Shown piece by piece: positions 31,097-31,204 of a stretch of DNA of 64,000 nucleotides (position 1 is the first letter of the stretch; each line of letters starts with the position of its first letter). Origin of the DNA: Escherichia coli (lineage in GTDB: Bacteria > Pseudomonadota > Gammaproteobacteria > Enterobacterales > Enterobacteriaceae). Below the pieces are notes generated by a model. That model was given only the letters and a program-made list of their open reading frames with translations. It ran no database searches and was not told the origin of the DNA. The position numbers were made by a program, and so were the translations under genes. The stretch lies in NCBI RefSeq assembly GCF_013315695.1, contig NZ_CP054353.1. One strand, given 5' to 3'.

Positions 31097-31204
31097 TTAC
31101 TTCCGCTTATTCAGCGAGTTCACGATCAGACTGGCAAGAATGCCAGCAATGACCGGAGCCGCTAAATCATGCCAGAAGGCCATGCCCAGTTCTGCGAGCG
31201 TCAT
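31097..31204 (-). CDS. ldr: Ldr type I toxin peptide, copy 1 (35 aa, variant …IVNSLNKRK)
   Basis: MTLAELGMAFWHDLAAPVIAGILASLIVNSLNKRK. Confidence 0.8.
   Translation of the reverse strand: MTLAELGMAFWHDLAAPVIAGILASLIVNSLNKRK

What the first reader, a model, noticed from the sequence alone, without database searches (positions are those of the whole stretch)
31097..31204. Proximal Ldr copy carries a Trp-to-Ser substitution at residue 30 of the toxin peptide
Copy 1 encodes …ASLIVNSLNKRK whereas copies 2-5 encode …IVNWLNKRK. A change at the membrane-interface aromatic residue of a 35-aa membrane toxin could attenuate or alter toxicity. Copies 1-2 also have Leu26 where copies 3-5 have Met26.
Basis: seen in the sequence. 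Interest (0 to 1): 0.25.

Follow-up and report, generated by a model that had tools for sequence, protein, structure and literature searches.

The report
Natural Trp30Ser allele of LdrD toxin
One of five tandem copies of a small, well-known E. coli membrane toxin gene (ldrD) really does carry a serine in place of the family's signature tryptophan, but this is an ordinary inherited allele found in about 6% of complete E. coli genomes, and its effect on toxicity has never been tested.

Summary
Window 31013-33347 holds five tandem 483-bp LDR-D units between bcsG and yhjV. Each unit has a 35-codon ldr ORF (minus strand) and an rdlD antitoxin RNA (plus strand). Copy 1 (31097-31204) reads TCG at codon 30 and the other four read TGG. 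Copies 1-2 have Leu26 and copies 3-5 have Met26.

It is not a read error. A 55-mer designed to seed only on the S30 base occurs exactly once in 337 of 5426 complete E. coli genomes, including 042, IAI39, SMS-3-5 and CE10. The peptide is RefSeq WP_000170736.1. In all 11 carrier genomes inspected, it is the bcsG-proximal unit.

Residue 30 is the published Fst/Ldr superfamily signature tryptophan. It is W in 60 of 64 family sequences that cover it, and the Pfam score drops 7.3 bits. However, the toxic prototype Fst-pAD1 naturally has valine there.

The variant lies about 100 bp from the array edge. That position explains why it persists yet never spreads to other copies.

My best reading is a lineage-fixed allele of a known type I toxin-antitoxin module that is probably still membrane-active and perhaps weaker. 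The functional effect is untested. Interest is low.

The parts
31097..31204 (-). ldr ORF of copy 1 (35 codons plus stop). It encodes the L26/S30 allele MTLAELGMAFWHDLAAPVIAGILASLIVNSLNKRK, which is RefSeq WP_000170736.1.
   Evidence: Pfam PF13940 Ldr_toxin scores 83.4 bits over positions 1-35 of 35. The peptide is 33/35 identical to the LdrD NMR structure 5LBJ.
31115..31117 (-). Codon 30, TCG (Ser). All other copies have TGG (Trp). The difference is a single G-to-C transversion on the coding strand at window base 31116.
   Evidence: Alignment A1 column 381. A 55-mer designed to seed only on this base is found once per genome in 337 of 5426 genomes.
31253..31318 (+). rdlD antitoxin RNA of copy 1. 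It is antisense to the 5' UTR of the copy-1 ldr mRNA and intact. Its 5' tail reads GUUAAGG, against GUUUGGG in copies 2-4.
   Evidence: Rfam RF01813 scores 88.3 bits, full length 1-66. Alignment A2.
31020..31047 (-). Intrinsic terminator hairpin of the copy-1 ldr mRNA (11-bp stem followed by a T-run), directly after the bcsG stop codon.
31013..33347 (-). Tandem array of five 483-bp LDR-D units (ldr ORF plus rdl RNA in each) between bcsG and yhjV.
   Evidence: TRF. Five rdlD hits. Alignment A1 with 96% mean column identity. The same array is annotated in isolate AF3.
31581..31688 (-). ldr ORF of copy 2, L26/W30 allele (WP_000170738.1).
32064..32171 (-). ldr ORF of copy 3, M26/W30 allele (WP_001295224.1).
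32547..32654 (-). ldr ORF of copy 4, M26/W30 allele.
33030..33137 (-). ldr ORF of copy 5 (yhjV-proximal), M26/W30 allele.
29331..31010 (+). bcsG, the unique flank that anchors the array edge. Its stop codon lies 106 bp from the S30 base.

Best explanation
Copy 1 is an intact ldrD/rdlD type I toxin-antitoxin module carrying a natural, lineage-fixed allele (L26/S30, WP_000170736.1). A single G-to-C transversion on an ancestral L26/W30 background replaced the Fst/Ldr signature tryptophan with serine.

Shown: the allele is real. It occurs once per genome in about 6% of complete E. coli genomes. From my own knowledge, the named carriers belong to phylogroups F and D. It always occupies the bcsG-proximal unit, and its antitoxin RNA, terminator and ORF are intact.

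Inferred (array mechanics): the variant base lies only about 100 bp from the array boundary. Unequal crossing-over or gene conversion can duplicate or erase it only if the exchange falls inside that short edge segment. So it persists and stays single-copy without any need for selection. Edge units are the most diverged in the window, as expected under this model.

Inferred (function): the peptide keeps its hydrophobic core, the P17xxxG21 motif and the KRK tail. It most likely still inserts in the inner membrane and is toxic when over-expressed. Weaker interfacial anchoring at the cytoplasmic end makes it probably somewhat less potent than the W30 copies.
For: - Reality and frequency: 337 of 5426 genomes, one place each. 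313 of these have a best ORF match at least 99% identical to copy 1. The exact peptide is seen on at least 1000 contigs.
- Position: the S30 copy is the bcsG-proximal unit in 11 of 11 carrier genomes, with arrays of 2-5 units.
- Ancestral state: L26/W30 is found in a sequence that the source names as E. albertii (P0006) and in copy 2. Non-carrier genomes from K-12, O157, O104:H4 and others have W30 in the proximal copy.
- Edge effect: copy 1 has 7 private differences, copy 5 has 4, and the interior copies have 0-1.
- Loss by recombination: EC0585 shares the IS4-in-bcsG marker with IAI39 but has a W30 proximal copy with an interior-type 3' UTR. This fits loss of S30 through an exchange inside the edge segment.
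- Intact module: rdlD at 88.3 bits, terminator present. Derived S30 alleles carry only conservative changes, L23F and I22F.
- Trp not essential elsewhere in the family: Fst-pAD1 has Val at this position and is toxic (PMC7472228).
- Possible attenuation: W in 60 of 64 sequences and a 7.3-bit drop. The interfacial partitioning sum for residues 27-35 rises from 0.98 to 2.96 kcal/mol on Wimley-White scale values I entered from memory.
Against: No experiment or computation here measures toxicity. W-to-S is a far more drastic change than the W-to-V seen in Fst. Near-invariance of W within the Ldr branch argues that it matters in this subfamily. ORF conservation is no stronger than in the flanking non-coding sequence (4.6% against 6.6% variable sites), so purifying selection on the S30 peptide is not demonstrated. 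The carriers have other W30 copies in the same array, so a dead copy would cost nothing. The phylogroup assignment of carriers rests on my knowledge of a few named strains, not on typing done here.
Confidence: 0.6

Rival explanations
1. S30 is a loss-of-function or strongly attenuated allele. Without the interfacial tryptophan the helix is not correctly anchored or oligomerised. On this view the copy is a neutral passenger kept only by its protected edge position and by the presence of intact W30 copies next to it.
For: W is nearly invariant in Ldr sequences (60 of 64), with a 7.3-bit loss. About 2 kcal/mol of interfacial partitioning is lost (scale values from memory). The allele never spread within arrays (one place per genome). 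There is no excess conservation of the ORF over the flanks. Every carrier inspected has at least one W30 copy in the same array.
Against: Of the 11 carrier genomes inspected, none has a nonsense or frameshift change in the S30 ORF; the ORFs of the other 326 carriers were not examined. The secondary changes seen are conservative hydrophobic swaps. The cognate Rdl is fully intact. Fst-pAD1 lacks the Trp and kills cells (PMC7472228). Small type I toxins generally tolerate single substitutions.
Confidence: 0.25
2. S30 is an adaptive change of function. It might alter membrane depth, oligomerisation or partner recognition (for example escape from, or tighter control by, the YajC neutralisation described for LdrA and LdrD), giving D/F-lineage strains a functionally distinct paralogue.
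For: The allele is retained intact, with an identical ORF, on two different non-coding haplotypes: the F-type with an extra G at A1 column 141, and the 042/NMBU type without it. [quoted passage not shown]
Against: There is no signal of positive selection or repeated origin. The edge-position mechanism explains persistence without selection. The allele has been lost in a relative of IAI39 with no obvious consequence. No data link residue 30 to YajC.
Confidence: 0.08
3. The substitution matters at the RNA level rather than the peptide level. The C at 31116 closes a G·G mismatch with G31160 in the long hairpin of the ldr mRNA, changing mRNA stability or translatability.
For: In predicted folds the S30 C pairs with G31160 at P=0.98, whereas the W30 G is 64% unpaired. 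Swapping the base changes the MFE by 2.2 kcal/mol for every 5' end tried. The mRNA region is very strongly structured, with an MFE of -181 kcal/mol and z = -7.8.
Against: 2.2 kcal/mol out of about 181 is marginal. The pair is a thermodynamic prediction with no covariation or probing support. The real 5' end and any processing of the mRNA were not established here.
Confidence: 0.05
4. The S30 codon is a sequencing or assembly error in this window.
For: None.
Against: The identical codon is present in 337 independent complete genomes, always once. The peptide is catalogued as WP_000170736.1.
Confidence: 0.01

Closest known systems
LdrD/RdlD type I toxin-antitoxin module of E. coli K-12 (LDR-D; PDB 5LBJ)
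   Same: Same locus (bcsG-yhjV intergenic region). The peptide is 35 aa and 33/35 identical to K-12 LdrD. The antisense Rdl RNA is full length. Unit architecture and terminator are the same, and the mRNA is highly structured.
   Different: K-12 has one unit here and the window has five. The copy-1 peptide differs from K-12 LdrD at F3L, M26L and W30S. W30S removes the family's signature tryptophan.
Fst of Enterococcus faecalis plasmid pAD1 (prototype of the Fst/Ldr superfamily)
   Same: It is a natural family member that lacks the signature Trp (Val instead) and is nevertheless a potent toxin (PMC7472228). This is the best precedent that S30 need not abolish activity.
   Different: Val is hydrophobic and Ser is polar. 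Fst is regulated by a 3'-overlapping RNA II rather than a 5'-UTR antisense RNA. It comes from a Gram-positive host and has an acidic rather than a basic C-terminus.
LdrA/B/C (LDR-A/B/C tandem array at the other ldr locus of K-12)
   Same: These are tandemly repeated ldr/rdl units. The peptides are 35 aa with a PxxxG motif, W30 and a basic tail.
   Different: They belong to a different sequence subgroup (…IVSWWRNRK, with two tryptophans). None lacks W30.
Other natural W30 substitutions in Ldr peptides (C30 allele P0012; R30 lineage P0062/P0065)
   Same: The signature Trp is replaced in a naturally occurring Ldr ORF. C30 lies in the same bcsG-yhjV array.
   Different: C30 is rare (11 contigs) and not tied to the edge unit. 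R30 is known only from representative sequences, one of them traced to a 620-bp metagenome contig. S30 is the only replacement that is widespread.

Membership tests
Ldr toxin family (Pfam PF13940) | Full-length match to the 35-residue Ldr_toxin profile above the gathering score | tested here: met
   83.4 bits against a cut-off of 27, covering positions 1-35 of 35. This is 7.3 bits lower than the W30 version.
Ldr toxin family (Pfam PF13940) | Single hydrophobic transmembrane helix with a PxxxG motif, followed by a basic C-terminal tail | tested here: met
   P17-V-I-A-G21 is present. Kyte-Doolittle mean for residues 14-29 is 2.14, identical to W30. The K33-R34-K35 tail is intact.
Fst/Ldr superfamily | Signature tryptophan between the transmembrane helix and the charged C-terminus (Fozo et al. 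2010, PMC2887945) | tested here: not met
   Residue 30 is Ser. The same exception (Val) exists in the founding member Fst-pAD1, so the feature is characteristic rather than obligatory (PMC7472228).
ldr/rdl type I toxin-antitoxin module | Cis-encoded antisense Rdl RNA overlapping the 5' UTR of the toxin mRNA | tested here: met
   Rfam RF01813 at 31253-31318 (+), 88.3 bits, full length, 49 nt upstream of the ldr start codon on the opposite strand.
ldr/rdl type I toxin-antitoxin module | Long direct repeat unit of about 0.5 kb, often tandemly repeated, in a conserved chromosomal site | tested here: met
   483-bp period, 4.8 copies. The bcsG-yhjV site is the same as for K-12 ldrD.
ldr/rdl type I toxin-antitoxin module | Peptide is toxic on over-expression and toxicity is repressed by the cognate Rdl | not testable with these tools
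   This has been shown for K-12 LdrD and LdrA in the literature. It has never been tested for the S30 allele.

The most novel reading that the evidence does not exclude
The S30 peptide could be a naturally re-tuned Ldr paralogue, either attenuated or with altered partner recognition or membrane depth. On this reading selection has kept it as a distinct edge copy in the D/F lineages of E. coli. It would then serve as a ready-made natural probe of what the Fst/Ldr signature tryptophan does.
Probability: 0.1. Interest if true: 0.35.

Novelty: already known. Interest (0 to 1): 0.15.

Why it matters
The finding matters only modestly. No mutagenesis of LdrD has been published, and the role of the Fst/Ldr signature tryptophan is unknown. 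A widespread natural W30S allele sitting beside W30 copies is a convenient pair for a simple toxicity and localisation comparison. It is also a clean small example of how the edge unit of a tandem array escapes homogenisation. It does not reveal a new system or mechanism.

Tried and rejected
I used the search of protein representatives and an exact cluster look-up instead.
- NCBIfam has no Ldr model that fires. It gave only sub-threshold Fst hits for the W30 versions and none for S30.
- The consensus promoter scan found no sigma-70 site in 30990-32000. I therefore make no claim about promoter differences between copies, and the mRNA 5' end is not established.
- Four literature searches and five papers found no description of the S30 allele and no mutagenesis of the Ldr or Fst-family tryptophan. 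The Lpt study mutated only Pro11 and the C-terminus.
- I considered a link between S30 and the variant Rdl 5' tail of copy 1 (GUUAAGG) and rejected it. Carriers of the 042/NMBU type have S30 with the common GUUUGGG tail.
- I considered AAT at Asn32 as an S30 marker and rejected it. It also occurs in W30 proximal copies and is AAC in the L23F/S30 alleles.
- I could not phylotype the 337 carriers or test whether all D/F genomes carry the allele. UMN026 (NC_011751.1) was not among the 60 records listed, which does not settle its status.

Full report
**1. The observation**

The region between bcsG (29331-31010, +) and yhjV contains one tandem array at 31013-33347, with a period of 483 bp, 4.8 copies and 97% matches.
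- Each unit carries a 35-codon ORF on the minus strand (31097-31204, 31581-31688, 32064-32171, 32547-32654, 33030-33137).
- Each unit also carries a full-length match to the Rfam rdlD antitoxin RNA on the plus strand, at 88-90 bits against a gathering score of 50.
- Copy 1 translates to MTLAELGMAFWHDLAAPVIAGILASLIVNSLNKRK.
- Copy 2 is the same peptide with W30. Copies 3-5 have M26 and W30.
- At the DNA level codon 30 is TCG in copy 1 and TGG elsewhere (alignment A1 column 381). Codon 26 is CTG in copies 1-2 and ATG in copies 3-5. Copy 1 also has a synonymous AAT/AAC difference at Asn32.

**2. Not an error, and not rare**

I designed a 55-nt megablast query with the S30 base at position 28, so that a W30 copy offers no exact 28-nt seed word.
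- It hits 337 of 5426 complete E. coli genomes, always on the chromosome and always exactly once per genome. 316 of the hits are 100% identical.
- Carriers include strains 042, IAI39, SMS-3-5, CE10 and ST648. From my own knowledge these belong to phylogroups D and F. I did no phylotyping here.
- The peptide is RefSeq WP_000170736.1, annotated by PGAP as 'type I toxin-antitoxin system toxin Ldr family protein'.
- The exact peptide is recorded on at least 1000 contigs of the large protein collection.
- For 313 genomes the best match to the copy-1 ORF is at least 99% identical.
- Isolate AF3 (NZ_OZ547117.1) matches window 27013-35496 with 12 mismatches.

**3. Where the allele sits**

In all 11 carrier genomes I inspected, the S30 ORF is the unit next to bcsG. 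These are the window, AF3, 042, IAI39, NMBU-W13E19, EcPF15, strain 20, EC-10, E1, ECONIH1 and AST262. The arrays range from 2 to 5 units with varied interior alleles.
- S30 is always coupled to L26.
- Eight non-carrier genomes have an M26/W30 proximal copy: K-12 TG1, O157:H7, O104:H4, AR_0118, A39, Ecol_AZ146, FDAARGOS_1283 and EC0585.
- A sequence that the source names as E. albertii has L26/W30 (P0006).
- The likely history is therefore that L26/W30 is ancestral, S30 arose once on that background in the edge unit, and M26 spread through the other units.
- Further derived alleles (L23F+S30 and I22F+S30) keep the ORF intact.

**4. Why it stays at the edge (inference)**

The variant base lies 106 bp from the bcsG stop codon, about 100 bp inside the array. 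An unequal exchange between misaligned units always leaves the boundary-nearest segment of the edge unit in place. S30 can be copied inward or erased only if the exchange falls within that 100-bp segment. This predicts three things, and all are seen.
- The edge units should be the most diverged. Copy 1 has 7 private differences, copy 5 has 4, and the interior copies have 0-1.
- The allele should never be multi-copy. It occurs once in each of the 337 genomes.
- It should occasionally be lost. EC0585 shares the IS4 insertion in bcsG with IAI39 but has a W30/M26 proximal copy whose 3' UTR carries the interior-type 'CAGACGGG'. That fits an exchange inside the edge segment.

No selection is needed to explain the pattern. 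The ORF is not detectably more conserved than its flanks, with 5 of 108 variable sites against 19 of 287.

**5. What the residue is**

[quoted passage not shown] 2010, PMC2887945).
- I tallied 78 sequences: 63 from a search of 1.84 billion representative proteins and 15 LdrD-cluster members from the exact look-up. Of the 64 that cover position 30, 60 have W, 2 have R, 1 has C and 1 has S.
- The Pfam Ldr_toxin score drops from 90.7 to 83.4 bits.
- On the Wimley-White interfacial scale (values entered from memory), the sum for residues 27-35 rises from 0.98 to 2.96 kcal/mol.

Against a drastic effect:
- The prototype Fst-pAD1 has Val at this position and is toxic. Weaver (2020, PMC7472228) concludes that the Trp 'is not essential for function'.
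- The hydrophobic core, the P17xxxG21 motif and the KRK tail are unchanged.
- The module's Rdl RNA and terminator are intact.
- No mutagenesis of LdrD has been published (PMC8309996). The Lpt study did not touch the Trp.

**6. RNA-level check**

The predicted ldr mRNA (31386 to 31013 on the minus strand; the 5' end is assumed) folds into a long hairpin with an MFE of -181 kcal/mol and z = -7.8 against shuffles. In this fold the 3' UTR pairs with the Shine-Dalgarno and start-codon region.
- The S30 C pairs with G31160 at P=0.98, where the W30 copies have a G·G mismatch.
- The base swap changes the MFE by 2.2 kcal/mol regardless of the 5' end chosen.
- This is a small, purely predicted effect. 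I keep it as a low-probability rival.

**7. Verdict**

The object is a known kind of thing: an ldrD/rdlD type I toxin-antitoxin module in a tandem LDR-D array. The specific allele is already catalogued in public genomes, although I found no paper that discusses it.
- Best explanation (confidence 0.6): an inherited, edge-protected allele that probably remains a membrane-active toxin with somewhat reduced potency.
- Main rival (0.25): it is functionally dead and neutral.
- Lesser rivals: adaptive re-tuning (0.08), RNA-level selection (0.05) and sequencing error (about 0.01).

Interest is low at 0.15. The finding is correct and tidy, but ordinary.

Noticed in passing
window 27065-29146: An IS1 element (InsA/InsB ORFs at 27065-27762, minus strand) sits upstream of a 5'-truncated bcsE (27827-29146, 439 aa against about 523 aa). 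The same disruption is annotated in isolate AF3, together with a partial BcsR/BcsP gene. The cellulose-synthesis locus of this strain is probably impaired.
   Followed up: partly
window 31253-31259, 31737-31743, 32220-32226, 32703-32709, 33186-33192: The five Rdl RNAs are identical except at nt 3-5 of their single-stranded 5' tail: copy 1 GUUAAGG, copies 2-4 GUUUGGG, copy 5 GUCUAGG. If the tail is the recognition seed, this could give partial cognate specificity, as described for Sib/Ibs. It is not linked to S30 in 042-type genomes.
   Followed up: partly
window 31013-31386 (minus strand): The predicted ldr mRNA is extremely structured (MFE -181 kcal/mol, z = -7.8). The 3' UTR pairs with the SD and start codon, which resembles the fold-back inhibition of hok mRNA. 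The 5' end of the transcript was assumed, not determined.
   Followed up: partly
L010 (EC0585, NZ_CP195049.1) 3501-4300 versus L003 (IAI39): EC0585 shares the IS4 insertion in bcsG with IAI39 but has only two units and a W30/M26 proximal copy with an interior-type 3' UTR. This looks like an array contraction that removed the S30 copy.
   Followed up: partly
L020-L022 (E. coli draft genomes); L019 (620-bp metagenome contig): Other natural replacements of the signature Trp exist. A rare C30 allele (11 contigs) lies in the same bcsG-yhjV array, at the proximal or second position. An R30 form (…IVSRMDNRK) occurs in a divergent Ldr lineage.
   Followed up: partly
window 31356 region (A1 column 141), copy 1 5' UTR: Copy 1 has a 1-nt insertion in a G-run (GGGGGG against GGGGG) in the ldr 5' UTR upstream of the Rdl-complementary region. 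It is shared by AF3 and IAI39 but absent from the S30 copies of 042 and NMBU-W13E19. It makes unit 1 484 bp long.
   Followed up: no
L008 (O104:H4 FDAARGOS_349) 5147-5253: The yhjV-proximal unit of a four-copy array in O104:H4 is annotated as a frameshifted ldr pseudogene. Individual units of these arrays do decay in some lineages.
   Followed up: no
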